Shown piece by piece: positions 18,413 to 22,589 of a DNA stretch of 64,000 bases. The translations under genes and the position numbers were made by a program. How positions within the stretch are numbered: the first letter of the stretch is position 1; the number at the start of each line of letters is the position of its first letter. The DNA comes from Patescibacteria group bacterium (GTDB lineage: Bacteria > Patescibacteriota > Microgenomatia > UBA8517), in assembly GCA_035260845.1 (NCBI GenBank), contig DATFUL010000003.1, positions 11,067-75,066 of the forward strand, given 5' to 3'. The notes beneath the pieces were generated by a model that did not search any database, was not told the DNA's origin, and was given only the letters and a program-made list of their open reading frames with translations.

Positions 18413-20614
18413 CTAAAAATTAATTAACTGGACTTCCCTTTCTAATTTTATATTAAACTTTTTATAAACGTCTTCTTTAATTTTTTCTGAAAGTTCCAAT
18501 ACTTCCTTTGCACTAGCATTTCCGCTTTTATTAACCAATATTAGAGCGTGTTTTGAAGATACCGCAGCAGATTTGTAAGATTTTCCTTTCCACCCCGACT
18601 GCTCAACTAACCAAGCTGCCGATATCTTAAATTTATCTTCAAAAGGAAATGTACTAAACCCAGGAAATTTCGATTCTAGTTTTTCTTTTTCAGATAAACT
18701 GATTATTGGATTTTTGAAGAACGAACCCGCATTTCCAATTTCTTTTGGATCCTCCAATTTATCTTTCCTTACCTGTAAAACTGCATCTCTGATTTCTAAA
18801 AGTGTTGGATTCTCTTTTGAAATGTATTTTTTAAGTGAGTCATAAGTTACTTTTCCAAATTTGTTTTTAGAAAGCTGAAGAGTGATGTTGCATATTACAT
18901 ACTTTTGCCAAAAATCCTTTTTCTTAAAAACACTTTCTCTATAGCCAAAATCACAATCTTGATTATTGAAAGTTATAAATTTTTCATTTTGAATATCGTA
19001 GGCTTCTAGGCTAACGAAGGTGTCTTTTAATTCGACTCCATAAGCACCAATATTTTGAATTGGGGCGGCCCCGACTGTTCCAGGAATCCCAGAAAGAGCC
19101 TCAATACCTTGAAGATTTTTATTAACTGCTTCATTAACCAAAGTATCCCAGTTAACACCCGCTTCAGCAGTTACCTCACCCGATTCTCTAAATTCAACAT
19201 TTTTCCCAACATACTTTAAAACAGCTCCATCGAAGTTTTTATCCGAAACTAAAATATCAGTCCCGTCTCCCAATACAAATAGAGGTAGTTTTTCCTTTTT
19301 TATGAGTTTAACTGCACTTTCTAATTCCTCTTTGCCTGTTATCTTGATATATTTTTTAATTTGTCCACCAATTCTAAAAGCAGTTACCTCCGAAAACTTT
19401 ACCGGAATAAGCTCAGAGATTTGCCTTGCCCATAAATAACTTTTACCCGCGCCCATTACAAGAACAACGTCACCCGGTTTTAATTCCTTAGATAAAATAT
19501 TTTTAATTTCTTCAAAAGATTCATACCCAATAGCTTCAGATTTTTCTGAGACTTTGGCAATCAGCGCCGGGGTAATACCAAAGGTTTCAGCGTCGCGTGC
19601 TTTAAAAATAGGTCCAATCAAAACTTTGTCGGCAGCATCAAAAACATTTTTATAGTTGGAAAGCAAAGCTTTGGTTCTAGCAAAACCATGGGCTTCAACA
19701 ATTGCCCAGATTCTATTTTTGGGATATTTTTCTCTTACACCCAGCAGGGTGGTAGCAATTGCAGTTGGATGGTGGGCGTAGTCATCATATATTTTAATAT
19801 CATTATTATCAGAAATTAACTCCATCCTGCGACTAATTCCATTAAATTCCTCTATCGATTTTATAATTTTATCATCGGAAATACTTAATGCTTTACCCAA
19901 AAGAAAAACCATGTTTGCATTTTTTTGATTATGTTTTCCAAAAACTTTTAAATTAAATTCCCTATTCAAACTATCTTTTTCTGTAATCAATATCTTTTGT
20001 CCTGTTAGGTTTTTTATGAATTTATTAAAACTTTCTTGAACCTCTTCTTTGTTTTTAAAAAAATCAGGGTGATCAAATTCAATATTATTAATAATGGCTA
20101 TATCAGGTTTATAGTTTAAAAAGTTATTATTAAATTCATCGGCTTCAACAACTGCATATTCCCCATTTCCAAACCTAGAATTGCTATTCCACTCAGGGAC
20201 TATTGCTCCAAGAACCACAATTGGGTCAAAACCGTTATCGATTAGAAGCTTGGCCGCCATCGCGGTTGTAGTCGACTTTCCATGCGTGCCAGCAATGCAA
20301 ATTAGTTTTTTATCCTTTAATAAAATTTTTCCTAAAAACTCCTGCCACGTGATTAATTTATTTTGTTTTTGTGCTTCGGTTATTTCTGGGTTGTTACTAT
20401 TTTGATAAATGACTGCAGGGCTAACTACTACCAAGTCGGCATCTTTTATATGTGTAGCGCTATGCCCTTTTAGAATATTCTTGCCATAGGCGGTCGAGTC
20501 TTCCAGGTCGCAACCTGAAACCATATATCCCATCCTTTCAGATAGTTGTGAAACTCCAAACAGGCCGCTTCCGCCAATACCAACAAAATGTACTCGTTTA
20601 ATTTTTGTATGCAT
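18413..20614 (-). CDS. murC/murB: Fusion protein: MurC (UDP-MurNAc:L-Ala ligase, about residues 1-460) joined to MurB (UDP-N-acetylenolpyruvoylglucosamine reductase, about residues 470-733)
   Basis: N-terminal half: VHFVGIGGSGLFGV and P-loop IAGTHGKSTTTAMAAKLL (MurC). C-terminal half: FRIGGQIKKYIKI...GVNWDTLVNEAVNKNLQGIEALSGIPGTVGAAPIQNIGAYGVELKD and KNAGSFFKNP (MurB FAD-binding and substrate domains). One uninterrupted 733-aa ORF. Confidence 0.85.
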   Translation of the reverse strand: MHTKIKRVHFVGIGGSGLFGVSQLSERMGYMVSGCDLEDSTAYGKNILKGHSATHIKDADLVVVSPAVIYQNSNNPEITEAQKQNKLITWQEFLGKILLKDKKLICIAGTHGKSTTTAMAAKLLIDNGFDPIVVLGAIVPEWNSNSRFGNGEYAVVEADEFNNNFLNYKPDIAIINNIEFDHPDFFKNKEEVQESFNKFIKNLTGQKILITEKDSLNREFNLKVFGKHNQKNANMVFLLGKALSISDDKIIKSIEEFNGISRRMELISDNNDIKIYDDYAHHPTAIATTLLGVREKYPKNRIWAIVEAHGFARTKALLSNYKNVFDAADKVLIGPIFKARDAETFGITPALIAKVSEKSEAIGYESFEEIKNILSKELKPGDVVLVMGAGKSYLWARQISELIPVKFSEVTAFRIGGQIKKYIKITGKEELESAVKLIKKEKLPLFVLGDGTDILVSDKNFDGAVLKYVGKNVEFRESGEVTAEAGVNWDTLVNEAVNKNLQGIEALSGIPGTVGAAPIQNIGAYGVELKDTFVSLEAYDIQNEKFITFNNQDCDFGYRESVFKKKDFWQKYVICNITLQLSKNKFGKVTYDSLKKYISKENPTLLEIRDAVLQVRKDKLEDPKEIGNAGSFFKNPIISLSEKEKLESKFPGFSTFPFEDKFKISAAWLVEQSGWKGKSYKSAAVSSKHALILVNKSGNASAKEVLELSEKIKEDVYKKFNIKLEREVQLINF

Positions 20615-22589
20615 TTAATTTAACTTCCATTTTCTGTTTTGCTTTTTCAAGTTCTTCTCTAGTATTGACGCCCTGCCATTCATCAGTATTTGGAAGTTTG
20701 ACGGCATCCACTTTTTTATCTTGATCTATAGCCATTTTAATAAGTTCGACAAGATAATATTCACCGGAAACAGGACTTTTAGAGACATTTTTCAGATTTT
20801 TCTCTAGCCAATTTCGATTAAAAATATATAGTCCATCGTTTACTTCTTTAATTTCCCTTTCCTCATCTGTTGCGTCTTTTTCTTCTATAATACTTACCAG
20901 GTTTCCGTTTTTATCCCTGACTATTCTACCCAAACCACGGGGATCATCCTTAACCAGCGTAATAAATGTCAAAACAGACCCTGATCTTTTATGGCTTTCG
21001 AGTACTTTAGATATTGTTTTTGGCGTATAAAAAGCAGTGTCATCGCCATAAAGAATCATCACATTATTGGATTTTTTTGATAGAATCGACATTCCACTCG
21101 CTGCAGCATCAGCGGTTCCACCTTTCGGATTCTTTTGAATTGCAATTTTGATTGGGCCTAAAATCACCTTTTCTATCTGATTTCTTCTAAAAGATAAAAC
21201 TGTAATAACTTCCCCAACCTTAGCATTTCTCAAATTTTCAATGCTATAAGAAATCATGGGCCTTCCACAAATTTCATGAAGAATTTTTGGAATATTCGAA
21301 TGCATTCTCGAACCCTTTCCTCCAGCTAATATAATTGCAGAAATGCTATCATCTTTTTCCAAATAATTTTTAATTATTTCTTGATCACTCCATGGATGCT
21401 CCCAACCTTTGAATGCCATACTCGTTTCATGCCCCTTACCTAAGATTGCAACGGTATCGCCGTTTTTGGCAATCGATAACGCATACGCAATTGCCTCACC
21501 GCGTTCCGGTATACAAACAAAATTCTTTGCATCCTTTTTCATTAATCTAAAAATATCTGTCAAATTTTCGCTTCTTGGATCCTCAGCTGTAAAGATTGAA
21601 AAGTCAGCCAGTTGCTCTGAAATTTTGCCCATTTTTCGGCGTTTTTTATGATCCCGCTCTCCGGCGCACCCAAAAACTGCAATAAGTTTTCCTTTGGTTT
21701 CTGTACGTAAATGTTTTAAAACTGCCTCTAGAGAATCTGGTGTATGAGCAAAGTCAACAAAAATTTTTAGCCCTCTTGAGTTCTTGATTTCTTCCAGTCT
21801 TCCTTTTGGTAATGTAAAAGAATCAATTGATCTAATTGCTTGAGAATTGGTGACCCCTAGTATTTCAGATACTTTAATAGCAGCTTCAAGGTTCAAGTTA
21901 TTAAATTTACCAGGAAGTATATTTAACTTTGTGTCTTTTGGTGCGACAACTGAGATTTTTGCAGATTTCAAAAAAGACATCTTAACCCTTTTATATTCCT
22001 TAAAAGTCTTGTGATAATCCAAGTGTTCCGGGGCAATGTTGGTTAAAACCCCAATTTCAAATTTAACTCCCGAGACCCTTTTTTGATCAATTCCATGTGA
22101 ACTAACTTCAATTACAGCGTATTTACATCCAGAGTCTACCATCTCACCCAGGAATTTATGAAGCGATACTACATCGGGGCTAGTAATGTGAAAGCCCGTA
22201 TCGATCTCCCGCTCTCCTATCTTGGCTACAATTGACGAAATAAGACCAGTTTTTTTACCTGAGGCATTAAGAATATGATAAATGAGATGTGAGGTTGTAG
22301 TTTTACCTTTAGTTCCCGTTACTCCAATAATTTTAATTTTCTGGCTTGGATTACCGTAAAATTCAGATGCATACTGCCCAAGAGCCTTCCTTGAATCTGG
22401 AACTTGAATATATTCCACTTCAGCAGGTAACTTTAGATCTTTTTCTCCAACAACTATTTTTGCTCCATTCTTTATAGCTTCTTTAATGTAATCATGCCCA
22501 TCAGAAGTGAGACCGGTAACAGCTACAAACATAAAGCCGTTCCTGACAGATCTGGAATCAGAAGTTATACCTTCAAATTTATGCATCTT
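20598..22589 (-). CDS. murE: Fusion protein: MurE (UDP-MurNAc-L-Ala-D-Glu:diamino-acid ligase, about 440 aa) joined to a GlmU-type N-acetylglucosamine-1-phosphate uridylyltransferase domain (about 230 aa; no acetyltransferase left-handed beta-helix (LbH) domain)
   Basis: MurE part: [19 protein letters not shown]..DGHDY, P-loop [32 protein letters not shown] (the DNPR-type motif with Arg retained). C-terminal part: [77 protein letters not shown]. This tracks the E. coli GlmU pyrophosphorylase domain nearly motif for motif. The start is chosen at M ([12 protein letters not shown]) to avoid an 80-nt overlap with murA. Confidence 0.8.
   Translation of the reverse strand, partial: [663 protein letters not shown]

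What the first reader, a model, noticed from the sequence alone, without database searches (positions are those of the whole stretch)
20598..22589. MurE fused in frame to a GlmU-type UDP-GlcNAc pyrophosphorylase domain
One ORF of about 663 aa carries a complete MurE ligase followed by about 230 aa that track the N-terminal uridylyltransferase domain of GlmU nearly motif for motif. The ligase part has the P-loop [20 protein letters not shown] and EDPR. The GlmU-like part has [53 protein letters not shown] and GEYYLV. There is no acetyltransferase beta-helix. In textbook organisms GlmU is separate, bifunctional and unlinked to mur genes. Here the enzyme that makes UDP-GlcNAc, the first substrate of the Mur pathway, is welded to the enzyme of step 5 inside the dcw operon. 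This suggests substrate channelling or stoichiometric coupling. It also raises the question of where the GlcN-1-P acetyltransferase activity resides.
Basis: partly seen in the sequence, partly recalled or inferred. Interest (0 to 1): 0.75.

Follow-up and report, generated by a model that had tools for sequence, protein, structure and literature searches.

The report
MurE fused to half of GlmU
One gene in a cell-wall operon of a tiny-genome (Patescibacteria) bacterium encodes the wall enzyme MurE joined to the UDP-GlcNAc-making half of GlmU; the join is real, old and shared by many relatives, but it looks like a merger of two neighbouring genes rather than a new kind of enzyme.

Summary
On the minus strand, 20598-22586, one 662-aa ORF carries a complete MurE ligase joined through about 3-7 residues to a GlmU-type GlcNAc-1-P uridylyltransferase domain. 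There is no LbH acetyltransferase.

It is not an artefact. The identical protein occurs in three independent assemblies. More than 120 90%-identity clusters share the architecture, as do 32 of 80 Microgenomates-group species.

The C-terminal domain scores about 190 bits on GlmU models, against 43-70 bits for RmlA, AglF and archaeal GlmU. All nucleotide-, Mg- and GlcNAc-binding motifs are invariant. The AlphaFold model superposes on S. pneumoniae GlmU at 1.7 Å.

The cause is gene adjacency. Unfused relatives have murE-glmU(N)-murC-murB with 1-4 nt stop/start overlaps. One clade fused glmU(N) to murE and its sister clade fused it to murC. This argues for co-expression or tethering, not channelling between non-consecutive steps.

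The acetyltransferase is not in the window. Relatives encode it as a separate LbH gene, or have a HAD-GNAT gene beside the fusion.

I found no paper describing this. I rate it a new variant of known enzymes, of moderate interest.

The parts
20598..22586 (-). murE::glmU(N) ORF, 662 aa, ATG 22586-22584, stop TAA 20600-20598
   Evidence: Identical to P0001 and found in three independent assemblies.
21375..22586 (-). MurE module (residues 2-405) with all three Mur ligase domains
   Evidence: Pfam Mur_ligase, Mur_ligase_M and Mur_ligase_C. TIGR01085 scores 454 bits (cut-off 257) and NF001126 scores 443 bits (cut-off 373). Foldseek matches MurE structures 4c12, 2xja and 1e8c at E about 1e-33.
22293..22325 (-). 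ATP-binding P-loop [11 protein letters not shown] of MurE
   Evidence: Invariant in 22 family members.
21573..21584 (-). E, D and R are invariant in the family.
   Evidence: Which amino acid is added was not tested.
21339..21359 (-). Junction EKDDSIS (residues 411-417). The last MurE helix ends at residue 410 and the first GlmU beta-strand starts at residue 413, so there is essentially no linker.
   Evidence: DSSP on the AlphaFold model.
20601..21353 (-). GlmU-type GlcNAc-1-P uridylyltransferase module (residues 413-663). It ends in a helix (20601-20660) that aligns with the S. pneumoniae GlmU helix preceding the LbH domain.
   Evidence: NCBIfam GlmU models match profile positions 2-242 of about 450 at 216-218 bits. 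PDB sequence search finds 1hm0/1g95 at E 6e-42. Foldseek finds 1g97 at rmsd 1.7 Å over 247 columns.
21285..21329 (-). Nucleotide-binding signature [15 protein letters not shown]. A422, G424, G426, R428, M429, P434 and K435 are invariant.
20832..20843 (-). VNDG. Asn584 aligns with the Asn of the INTG motif of S. pneumoniae GlmU. I take this to be the Asn169 that hydrogen-bonds the sugar 3'-OH. It is invariant here.
   Evidence: The role of Asn169 is from preprint 10.64898/2026.06.23.733835.
22579..23874 (-). murA, immediately upstream. Its stop overlaps the murE ATG by 8 nt.
   Evidence: Pfam EPSP_synthase E 1e-63. Sequence.
18413..20614 (-). murC::murB fusion (733 aa), immediately downstream. 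Its ATG overlaps the end of the murE::glmU(N) ORF by 17 nt.
   Evidence: Pfam Mur ligase domains plus FAD_binding_4 and MurB_C. Sequence.
7504..26854 (-). The whole cell-wall/division cluster: rsmH, PBP/ftsI, murA, murE::glmU(N), murC::murB, murD, ddl, alr, murF, mraY, ftsW, murG, ftsQ-like, ftsA, ftsZ

Best explanation
This is a bifunctional enzyme made by fusing two neighbouring, translationally coupled genes of the cell-wall (dcw) operon.

The N-terminal 405 residues are a normal MurE. MurE uses ATP to add the third, diamino amino acid to UDP-MurNAc-L-Ala-D-Glu. HMM score suggests the amino acid is meso-diaminopimelate, but this was not tested.

The C-terminal 250 residues are the uridylyltransferase half of GlmU. 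This half makes UDP-GlcNAc from GlcNAc-1-P and UTP.

In this bacterial group (Microgenomates/Woesebacteria-type Patescibacteria), glmU has lost or shed its LbH acetyltransferase half. In the clade sampled here, the remaining half is a resident of the dcw cluster. In the relatives closest to the fused clades it lies between murE and murC. Loss of the murE stop codon joined the two genes once, in the ancestor of a large clade that includes this organism.

The likely benefit is fixed 1:1 co-expression. A further possible benefit is tethering of a uridylyltransferase that has lost the LbH domain, which in GlmU forms the trimer, to the Mur enzyme set. Direct hand-over of product is unlikely, because four enzymes act between the two reactions.

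Shown here: the architecture, the conservation, the active-site motifs, the fold, the gene order and the phylogenetic pattern. Inferred: both activities, the oligomeric consequences and the selective reason.
For: 1.

2. The motifs that in GlmU bind UTP, Mg and GlcNAc are invariant in 22 fused proteins. These are LAxGxGxRM-x4-PK, Q485, G491-T492, YGDD514-517, GLGR552-555, EEK569-571, N584, E610/Y612 and N642. The core positions are also invariant in a 16-sequence fused-plus-standalone set. Their alignment to S. pneumoniae GlmU is.

3. The AlphaFold model has pLDDT 88 and pTM 0.85. Foldseek matches MurE structures at E about 1e-33 and GlmU 1g97 at rmsd 1.7 Å.

4. The fusion appears in three independent assemblies. 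It also appears in more than 120 clusters at 58-100% identity.

5. Of 80 GTDB species loci, 32 have MurE::GlmU-N, 12 have GlmU-N::MurC and 35 have a stand-alone gene of about 250 aa. None has an LbH domain in the same ORF.

6. In an NJ tree of the domain, the MurE fusions form one clade that contains the window. The MurC fusions form the neighbouring clade. Unfused murE-glmU(N)-murC genomes branch just outside both.

7. In unfused relatives the murE stop and the glmU(N) start overlap by 1-4 nt, for example TAATG and ATGA.

8. Other adjacent dcw genes are fused in the same genomes: MurC::MurB here, MurB::MurD elsewhere.

9. The window operon holds murA and murB. UDP-GlcNAc is therefore the entry substrate of the pathway encoded around the fusion.
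Against: No enzyme activity has been measured for any member.

The source of GlcNAc-1-P in this organism is unknown. The 64-kb window contains no glmS, glmM, GlmU-type LbH, GlmR, HAD-GNAT or sugar kinase.

The MurE motif is EDPR rather than the canonical DNPR, so the amino acid added is uncertain.

The reason the fusion is kept (co-expression or tethering) is an inference from its distribution, not a result.

The NJ tree has no support values.

The 80 loci were selected with a peptide pattern specific to this clade, so the 32/12/35 counts are not an unbiased census.
Confidence: 0.75

Rival explanations
1. The C-terminal domain is a salvage enzyme, not a GlmU-like one. It would uridylylate MurNAc-1-P (as MurU does) or scavenged GlcNAc-1-P made by an anomeric sugar kinase. 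The organism would then build its wall from host-derived amino sugars and would need no acetyltransferase.
For: A close relative of the domain (P0150, 38% identity) is fused to an APH-family kinase. By my recollection this is the family of the anomeric kinases AmgK and NahK. No acetyltransferase, glmS or glmM is present in the window. Patescibacteria have small genomes and are generally thought to be host-dependent (general knowledge).
Against: GlmU models score about 190 bits. No MurU-named model is among the 25 best NCBIfam matches, all of which score at least 22.5 bits. No MurU structure appears among PDB sequence matches at E <= 1e-3. The GlcNAc-contacting motifs of GlmU are invariant. murA and murB sit in the same operon, and they would be unnecessary if UDP-MurNAc were made by salvage. 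A salvage origin of GlcNAc-1-P with a GlmU-like uridylyl transfer is compatible with the main explanation rather than a rival to it.
Confidence: 0.1
2. The fusion exists for substrate channelling between the two active sites.
For: The two modules are joined with almost no linker. The model has a high pTM of 0.85, which suggests a fixed mutual orientation.
Against: The two reactions are separated by MurA, MurB, MurC and MurD (established pathway). The same domain is fused to MurC in a sister clade and is free in many relatives. This pattern is what adjacency-driven fusion predicts and is not what a specific catalytic coupling predicts.
Confidence: 0.05
3. The GlmU-like module is catalytically silent. 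It would act as a UDP-GlcNAc or UTP sensor that regulates MurE.
For: UDP-GlcNAc-binding regulators exist in this pathway: YvcK/GlmR. A GlmR homologue is encoded beside the fusion in 23 of 32 related loci.
Against: All catalytic and metal-binding residues are invariant over at least 40-50% sequence divergence. No other GlmU-type uridylyltransferase gene is present in the window or in the 20-kb loci of relatives in the fused clade.
Confidence: 0.05
4. The long ORF is an assembly or sequencing artefact that hides a stop codon or frameshift between two genes.
For: In unfused relatives the two genes overlap by only 1-4 nt, so a single-base error could mimic a fusion.
Against: The identical 662-aa product is found in three unrelated samples. 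The same architecture is found in 32 species and more than 120 clusters, with conserved junction length.
Confidence: 0.01

Closest known systems
GlmU (bifunctional GlcN-1-P acetyltransferase / GlcNAc-1-P uridylyltransferase; e.g. S. pneumoniae 1G95/1G97/1HM0, E. coli 1HV9)
   Same: The N-terminal pyrophosphorylase domain matches in fold (rmsd 1.7 Å), signature L-x2-G-x-G-[ST]-R-M-x4-P-K, metal ligands and GlcNAc-binding motifs.
   Different: There is no LbH acetyltransferase or trimerisation domain. The chain stops in the connecting helix. The domain is attached to the C-terminus of MurE. It scores only about half of the full-length GlmU cut-offs.
MurE (UDP-MurNAc-L-Ala-D-Glu:diamino-acid ligase; 1E8C, 4C12, 2XJA)
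   Same: It has the three-domain Mur ligase architecture and the P-loop. It scores above the curated cut-offs of TIGR01085 and NF001126. The fold also matches.
   Different: It carries a 250-aa extra catalytic module at the C-terminus. Its motif is EDPR rather than DNPR.
Other Mur-enzyme fusions: MurC-MurB of Verrucomicrobia (PMC4803751), MurE-MurF (PDB 8F5D; NCBIfam NF008896)
   Same: These are end-to-end fusions of cytoplasmic peptidoglycan enzymes encoded by neighbouring dcw genes. The window has a MurC(N)-MurB(C) fusion right next door, with the same domain order as in Verrucomicrobium.
   Different: Those fusions join enzymes within the Mur series. Here the partner is the enzyme that supplies the pathway's entry nucleotide sugar, and it is only half of its usual protein.
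Uridylyltransferase-only GlmU fragments: natural ones noted in some bacteria (preprint 10.64898/2026.06.23.733835)
   Same: They are GlmU N-terminal domains without the acetyltransferase. The preprint raises the same open question of which enzyme acetylates the glucosamine phosphate.
   Different: Those are free proteins. Here the domain is covalently joined to MurE and is embedded in the dcw operon of a whole clade.
MurU (MurNAc-1-P uridylyltransferase of the AmgK-MurU salvage route)
   Same: It belongs to the same broad nucleotidyltransferase superfamily and also feeds a UDP-sugar to the Mur ligases (my own knowledge).
   Different: There is no detectable specific similarity: it is absent from the top NCBIfam and PDB sequence matches. 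The window encodes murA and murB, so the bypass is not needed.

Membership tests
MurE (Mur ligase family) | Three Mur ligase domains (N-terminal, central ATP-binding, C-terminal) | tested here: met
   Pfam PF01225, PF08245 and PF02875 at residues 5-386, all above gathering scores.
MurE (Mur ligase family) | Scores above the curated cut-off of MurE-specific models rather than MurC, MurD or MurF models | tested here: met
   TIGR01085 scores 454 bits against a cut-off of 257. NF001126 (DAP-adding equivalog) scores 443 against 373. The murF model scores 117 against 289.
MurE (Mur ligase family) | P-loop GxxGxxGKT[ST] | tested here: met
   [11 protein letters not shown]. G89, T91-T99, H189, D191, H193 and K203 are invariant in 22 sequences. 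That the conserved Lys/His are the ATP/Mg/carbamate-site residues is my assignment from memory and was not mapped onto a structure.
MurE (Mur ligase family) | DNPR motif that selects meso-diaminopimelate | tested here: inconclusive
   The motif is EDPR. Arg is kept and Asp-Asn is replaced by Glu-Asp, invariantly in the family. The Lys-type model NF010628 scores 282 against a cut-off of 536. The substrate was not determined.
MurE (Mur ligase family) | MurE fold | tested here: met
   Foldseek against 4c12, 2xja, 8g6p and 1e8c gives E 2e-33 to 3e-32 and target TM 0.68-0.76.
GlmU (bifunctional, NCBIfam TIGR01173 equivalog) | N-terminal pyrophosphorylase domain with signature L-x2-G-x-G-T-x-M-x4-P-K | tested here: met
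   [15 protein letters not shown]. Profile positions 2-242 are matched. The PDB match to 1hm0 has E 6e-42.
GlmU (bifunctional, NCBIfam TIGR01173 equivalog) | Uridylyltransferase active-site residues (Arg/Lys of the signature, Gln and Gly-Thr for uracil, Asp and Asn metal ligands, Glu/Asn for GlcNAc) | tested here: met
   R428, K435, Q485, G491, T492, D516, D517, E569, E570, N584, E610, Y612 and N642 are invariant in 22 fused proteins. The core is also invariant in a fused-plus-free set. The assignment of individual residues to these roles is mine, from the alignment and memory. Only the Asn169 equivalent has a cited role.
GlmU (bifunctional, NCBIfam TIGR01173 equivalog) | C-terminal left-handed beta-helix GlcN-1-P acetyltransferase domain | tested here: not met
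   There is no Hexapep hit. The chain ends at residue 663 in the connecting helix. None of 80 related loci has an LbH domain in the same ORF.
GlmU (bifunctional, NCBIfam TIGR01173 equivalog) | Whole-protein score above the curated cut-off | tested here: not met
   216 bits against 367 for TIGR01173, and 218 against 450 for NF010934. This is as expected when only half the profile is matched.
GlmU (bifunctional, NCBIfam TIGR01173 equivalog) | GlcNAc-1-P + UTP -> UDP-GlcNAc activity | not testable with these tools
   This needs an enzyme assay or complementation of a glmU depletion strain.
Other sugar-1-P nucleotidyltransferases (RmlA, GalU/AglF, ManC, archaeal GlmU, MurU) | Better score on that family's model than on GlmU models | tested here: not met
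   For the domain alone, GlmU models score 188-192 bits. Arch_glmU scores 70, AglF 53, RmlA-long 43, GlgC 35 and the ManC-type model 35. No MurU model is in the top 25. In the PDB search, GlmU chains have E 1e-42 to 1e-26 and the next family has E 1e-10.

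The most novel reading that the evidence does not exclude
In Microgenomates-group Patescibacteria the textbook GlmU has been taken apart. Its uridylyltransferase half has become a built-in module of the Mur machinery, fused to MurE in one clade and to MurC in another.

In the MurE-fusion clade the LbH acetyltransferase would have been replaced by an unrelated HAD-GNAT protein. 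A GNAT would do the N-acetylation and a HAD-type domain might do the phosphate shift. This would be a non-canonical bacterial route to UDP-GlcNAc in a major uncultivated lineage.

The lead rests on three observations. A GNAT gene or a HAD-GNAT gene lies directly upstream of murE::glmU(N) in 9 of 32 loci. A HAD gene follows free glmU(N) in 5 of 35 loci. Rosetta-stone proteins join GlmU-N to HAD (P0143, P0130) and to HAD plus this same GNAT (P0158).
Probability: 0.25. Interest if true: 0.7.

Novelty: new variant of a known kind. Interest (0 to 1): 0.42.

Why it matters
GlmU is treated as a universal, bifunctional and essential bacterial enzyme, and as a drug target. This case adds a large uncultivated clade in which only its uridylyltransferase half survives. 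That half is welded to a Mur ligase inside the cell-wall operon. The result supports the recent view that bacterial routes to UDP-GlcNAc are more varied than assumed (preprint 10.64898/2026.06.23.733835).

It has three practical uses.

1. These proteins are currently annotated only as 'Mur ligase family protein' or 'MurE'. Metabolic reconstructions of Patescibacteria may therefore wrongly score UDP-GlcNAc synthesis as missing.

2. The alternative fusion partners (MurE or MurC) give a clean natural example of adjacency-driven gene fusion in reduced genomes.

3. The neighbouring HAD-GNAT, GlmR and GlmS genes give concrete candidates for the missing acetylation step.

It does not reveal a new enzyme chemistry.

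Tried and rejected
1. I looked in the window for the missing acetyltransferase and for UDP-GlcNAc supply genes. Pfam or NCBIfam scans covered 56 of the 57 ORFs of at least 150 aa. The one not scanned is the 177-aa plus-strand ORF at 11208-11741, which lies inside murG on the opposite strand. I also ran tblastn with GlmS, GlmR, GNAT, HAD, APH and GlmU-C references. Nothing was found. The only LbH protein (51159-51755) is of the WcaF/maltose-O-acetyltransferase type and sits in a polysaccharide cluster.

2. I tested whether the GNAT beside murE in L004 and the GNAT beside the fusion in L005 are the same family. They are not clearly homologous (blastp E 0.007 over 31 residues). Neither resembles a glucosamine-phosphate acetyltransferase of known structure. 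Only the L005-type GNAT recurs.

3. I searched for the HAD-GNAT family. Only 21 clusters were found, no GlmU-N fusion among them and no informative names. NCBIfam has no model for it.

4. I ran seven literature searches for a MurE-GlmU fusion, or for GlmU in Patescibacteria, CPR or Microgenomates. None found a description. The main comparative paper on dcw clusters that I recall (Megrian et al. 2022) is not in the library, so I could not check it.

5. I could not read the rest of this genome (the 608,867-bp contig carrying P0001) or the complete Woesebacteria genomes.

6. Cluster look-up gave almost no taxonomic names.

7. Record titles such as 'uncultured Gammaproteobacteria', 'Alphaproteobacteria' and 'Nanoarchaeia' on several loci disagree with the gene content. 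I disregarded them as mislabels.

Full report
**1. What is in the sequence**

The feature lies on the minus strand. The ORF listing gives an ORF at 20598-22658 that starts at a TTG. The ATG that homologues use is at 22586-22584. From the ATG the product is 662 aa and is identical to database protein P0001. Residue numbers below use the 663-aa translation of 20598-22589. Subtract 1 for the real protein.

- Pfam places Mur_ligase, Mur_ligase_M and Mur_ligase_C at residues 5-386, and NTP_transferase at residues 418-654.
- NCBIfam scores the protein above the curated cut-offs of two MurE models. TIGR01085 gives 454 bits against 257. NF001126 gives 443 bits against 373.
- It matches GlmU models only over profile positions 2-242 of about 450, at 216-218 bits.
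- There is no hexapeptide/LbH domain. The chain ends in a helix (residues 644-662). This helix aligns with the S. pneumoniae GlmU helix that precedes the beta-helix domain.

**2. It is not an artefact**

- The identical protein is called on contigs from three unrelated samples.
- The 120 best clusters at 90% identity are 58-100% identical to the query and 630-693 aa long. All carry both the Mur ligase and the NTP_transferase Pfam domains.
- The junction is short and conserved. The last MurE helix ends at residue 410 and the first beta-strand of the GlmU-like module starts at residue 413.

**3. What the C-terminal module is**

Taken alone, it scores as follows:

| Model | Bits |
|---|---|
| GlmU models | 188-192 |
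| Archaeal GlmU | 70 |
| AglF | 53 |
| RmlA-long | 43 |
| GlgC / ManC-type | 35 or less |

- Against PDB sequences, the best matches are 17 GlmU chains (E 6e-42 to 1e-25). The next family comes in at 1e-10.
- An AlphaFold model built on 22 family members has mean pLDDT 88 and pTM 0.85.
- Foldseek finds MurE structures first (E about 1e-33). It then finds S. pneumoniae GlmU 1g97 at rmsd 1.7 Å over 247 columns.
- In the 22-sequence alignment the following are invariant: A422, G424, G426, R428, M429, P434, K435, Q485, G491, T492, D516, D517, G552-R555, E569-K571, N584, E610, Y612 and N642.
- I assign these positions to the nucleotide signature, the uracil pocket, the metal ligands and the GlcNAc-contacting residues of GlmU. 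The assignment comes from the alignment and from my own knowledge of GlmU structures.
- I equate N584 with Asn169 through the alignment to S. pneumoniae GlmU. Replacing Asn169 with Ser cripples S. aureus GlmU (preprint 10.64898/2026.06.23.733835).
- The core positions stay invariant when free-standing homologues are added.

I conclude that the module is a functional GlcNAc-1-P uridylyltransferase. The activity itself is inferred.

**4. What the MurE module is**

It is a complete MurE by architecture, model scores, P-loop and fold. The motif that in MurE selects the diamino acid reads EDPR instead of DNPR. Arg is retained, and the motif is invariant in the family. The DAP-type model passes its cut-off and the Lys-type model does not. 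The substrate remains untested.

**5. Context in the window**

The ORF sits in a very complete cell-wall/division operon on the minus strand. The gene order is:

rsmH, PBP/ftsI, murA, murE::glmU(N), murC::murB, murD, ddl, alr, murF, mraY, ftsW, murG, an ftsQ-sized ORF, ftsA, ftsZ.

- The murA stop overlaps the fusion's ATG by 8 nt. The fusion's end overlaps the murC::murB ATG by 17 nt. This indicates translational coupling.
- The neighbour is itself a fusion, MurC(N)-MurB(C). It has the same domain order as the characterised Verrucomicrobium enzyme.

**6. Where the fusion came from**

A full HMMER scan of 1.84 billion representative proteins with the C-terminal module shows its nearest relatives.

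- Most are free proteins of about 245-255 aa.
- Some are MurE fusions.
- Others are fusions in the reverse order or to other partners.

Pfam scans of those other fusions show:

| Protein(s) | Architecture |
|---|---|
| P0126, P0135 | GlmU-N followed by a Mur ligase |
| P0150 | GlmU-N + APH-family kinase |
| P0158 | GlmU-N + HAD |
| P0177 | GlmU-N + short-chain dehydrogenase |

The genomic context of a free homologue (P0129) gives the order PBP - GNAT - murE - glmU(N) - murC - murB - murA .... The context of P0126 shows that its partner is MurC, because murB and murA follow.

I then scanned one genome per GTDB species with an alignment of the module. This returned 80 loci. Those whose titles carry an informative name are Woesebacteria, Curtissbacteria, Levybacteria, Woykebacteria or other Microgenomates, plus one Nealsonbacteria. 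About a third carry uninformative or evidently wrong names. I classified every locus by ORF and tblastn:

| Architecture | Loci |
|---|---|
| MurE::GlmU-N | 32 |
| GlmU-N::MurC | 12 |
| Free GlmU-N | 35 |
| GlmU-N ORF not recovered by my ORF-level parsing (L088) | 1 |
| LbH domain in the same ORF | 0 |

- In a neighbour-joining tree of the module, the MurE fusions form a single clade that contains the window.
- The MurC fusions form the adjacent clade. The only apparent exception, L053, is cut by a contig end.
- Unfused genomes with the order murE-glmU(N)-murC branch just outside both.
- In these unfused genomes the murE stop and the glmU(N) start overlap by 1-4 nt. Losing one stop codon is therefore enough to make the fusion.
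- MurC::MurB and MurB::MurD fusions are scattered through the same loci.

The simplest reading is an old, single fusion of adjacent, co-translated genes. The lineage shows a general tendency to fuse dcw neighbours.

**7. How it most likely works, and why channelling is unlikely**

The two active sites catalyse reactions separated by MurA, MurB, MurC and MurD (established pathway). The same module is fused to a different ligase in the sister clade and is free in many relatives. That pattern fits fixed stoichiometry or co-expression. Tethering of a uridylyltransferase that has lost its trimer-forming LbH domain to the Mur enzymes is also possible. It does not fit a specific product hand-over. 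The tethering idea is an inference. The high pTM hints at a fixed inter-domain orientation, but I could not inspect it further.

**8. Where the acetyltransferase is**

*In the window.* It is not in the window. Family scans of 56 of the 57 ORFs of at least 150 aa found no glmS, glmM, GlmU-type LbH, GlmR, HAD-GNAT or sugar kinase. The one ORF not scanned is the plus-strand ORF at 11208-11741, which lies inside murG on the opposite strand. Targeted tblastn also found nothing. The only LbH protein (51159-51755) is WcaF/maltose-O-acetyltransferase-like and sits in a polysaccharide cluster.

*In relatives.* There are three situations.

(a) Separate LbH genes lie near free glmU(N) in 8 of 35 loci, directly beside it in four of them.
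- L042 has a 223-aa protein that matches GlmU profile positions 238-441 at 246 bits. This is a truly split GlmU.
- L069 and L083 have archaeal-type LbH halves.
- L052, L062 and L082 have full archaeal-type bifunctional enzymes.

(b) Free GlmU-C-type LbH proteins of about 200 aa, named Curtissbacteria, Daviesbacteria or Patescibacteria, are encoded elsewhere in those genomes.

(c) In the MurE-fusion clade, no LbH lies within 10 kb in any of 32 loci. Nine loci have a GNAT gene directly upstream of the fusion, and in four of these the same ORF also carries a HAD domain.
- Many of these loci also carry a YvcK/GlmR homologue (23 of 32; TIGR01826 at 231 bits against 196) and glmS (8 of 32).
- P0158 joins GlmU-N, HAD and a GNAT. 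The C-terminal part of this GNAT is, by eye, clearly similar to the L005-type GNAT.
- P0143 and P0130 join GlmU-N and HAD.
- These Rosetta-stone links make HAD-GNAT a candidate replacement.
- The candidacy is weak. The family is small (21 clusters). It has no curated model. It has no resemblance to known GlcN-phosphate acetyltransferases. It has no homologue in this window.

For this organism the question stays open.

**9. Comparison with what is known**

- The parts are ordinary members of the MurE family and of the GlmU N-terminal domain family. The whole is not a GlmU, because the defining LbH half is absent.
- Fusions among Mur enzymes are known: MurC-MurB (PMC4803751), and MurE-MurF (PDB 8f5d; NCBIfam NF008896).
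- Uridylyltransferase-only GlmU proteins in a few bacteria were noted in a 2026 preprint. That preprint also states that the acetyltransferase in such species is unidentified.
- Seven literature searches found no description of a MurE-GlmU fusion or of glmU(N) as a dcw resident in Patescibacteria.
- Database names for these proteins are 'Mur ligase family protein', 'NTP transferase domain-containing protein' or plain MurE.

**10. Verdict**

- The identity of both halves is well supported.
- The channelling interpretation is not supported.
- This is a new variant of known enzymes: an undescribed but widespread domain architecture with a simple evolutionary origin.
- Its interest is moderate. 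The value lies mainly in what it says about the dismantling of GlmU in a large uncultivated lineage, and in the concrete candidates it offers for the missing acetylation step.

Noticed in passing
window 18413-20614 (-): The gene immediately downstream is itself a fusion, MurC (N-terminal) plus MurB (C-terminal), 733 aa. It has the same domain order as the characterised Verrucomicrobium spinosum enzyme. Among related loci it is fused in some species and split in others.
   Followed up: partly
window 7504-26854 (-): This is an unusually complete dcw operon that also contains murA, murB, ddl and alr. No glutamate racemase (murI) and no mraZ were detected in the window. Many relatives have murI inside the cluster.
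   Followed up: partly
L005 6254-9981; also L009, L011-L013, L015, L017-L023, L025-L027, L029-L034, L036 and L044: In Woesebacteria-type relatives, a YvcK/GlmR homologue (UDP-GlcNAc-binding regulator family) lies within 10 kb of the fusion in 23 of 32 loci. glmS is present in 8 of 32 and a GNAT or HAD-GNAT gene in 9 of 32. They are inserted between murA and murE::glmU(N) or just after it. None of these is present in the window.
   Followed up: partly
P0158, P0143 and P0130; L019 7532-8704 (-): There are Rosetta-stone proteins: GlmU-N+HAD (P0143, P0130) and GlmU-N+HAD+GNAT (P0158). The GNAT part of P0158 is homologous to the GNAT that sits beside the MurE fusion in L005. A separate 390-aa HAD-GNAT ORF occurs in L018-L020. 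It may be a replacement for the LbH acetyltransferase.
   Followed up: partly
P0150 (574 aa): This is a GlmU-N domain fused to an APH-family kinase domain. That is the arrangement expected for a sugar-1-kinase plus uridylyltransferase salvage pair.
   Followed up: no
L026, L027, L073; L031 and L036: There are further dcw fusions in relatives: MurB::MurD ORFs of 726-846 aa, and MurD-containing ORFs of about 817 aa whose extra part I did not identify.
   Followed up: no
L089 6001-10043: A stand-alone 201-aa GlmU-C-type LbH protein of a Patescibacteria MAG is followed directly by genes resembling ATP-citrate lyase or citryl-CoA enzymes (ATP-grasp_2/Citrate_bind, CoA_binding/Ligase_CoA, Citrate_synt). 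This may link acetyl-CoA supply to the acetyltransferase.
   Followed up: no
window 51159-51755 (-): This 198-aa hexapeptide-repeat acetyltransferase is the only LbH protein in the window. It is WcaF/maltose-O-acetyltransferase-like and sits in a long glycosyltransferase/Wzy polysaccharide cluster (about 42010-61217). That cluster also holds a ManC-like nucleotidyltransferase (42665-43807).
   Followed up: yes
window 3414-4445 (-): There is a second FtsW/RodA-family gene just outside the dcw operon, downstream of a class I aminoacyl-tRNA synthetase gene (4445-7468; I/L/M/V type).
   Followed up: no
L011, L012, L015, L019, L022, L025, L049 and others: Many MAG records carrying this Patescibacteria-type operon are titled 'uncultured Gammaproteobacteria', 'Alphaproteobacteria', 'Pseudomonadales' or 'Nanoarchaeia'. 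These look like taxonomic mislabels in the public records.
   Followed up: no
window 27448-28119, 31995-33433, 49961-50560, 56181-57455, 58344-59690, 63150-63992: Several ORFs of 199-448 aa have no match in the one library each was scanned against. Pfam was used for 27448-28119, 31995-32702, 32618-33433, 49961-50560, 56181-57455 and 58344-59690. All of these were also scanned against NCBIfam without a match. 63150-63992 was scanned against NCBIfam only.
   Followed up: no
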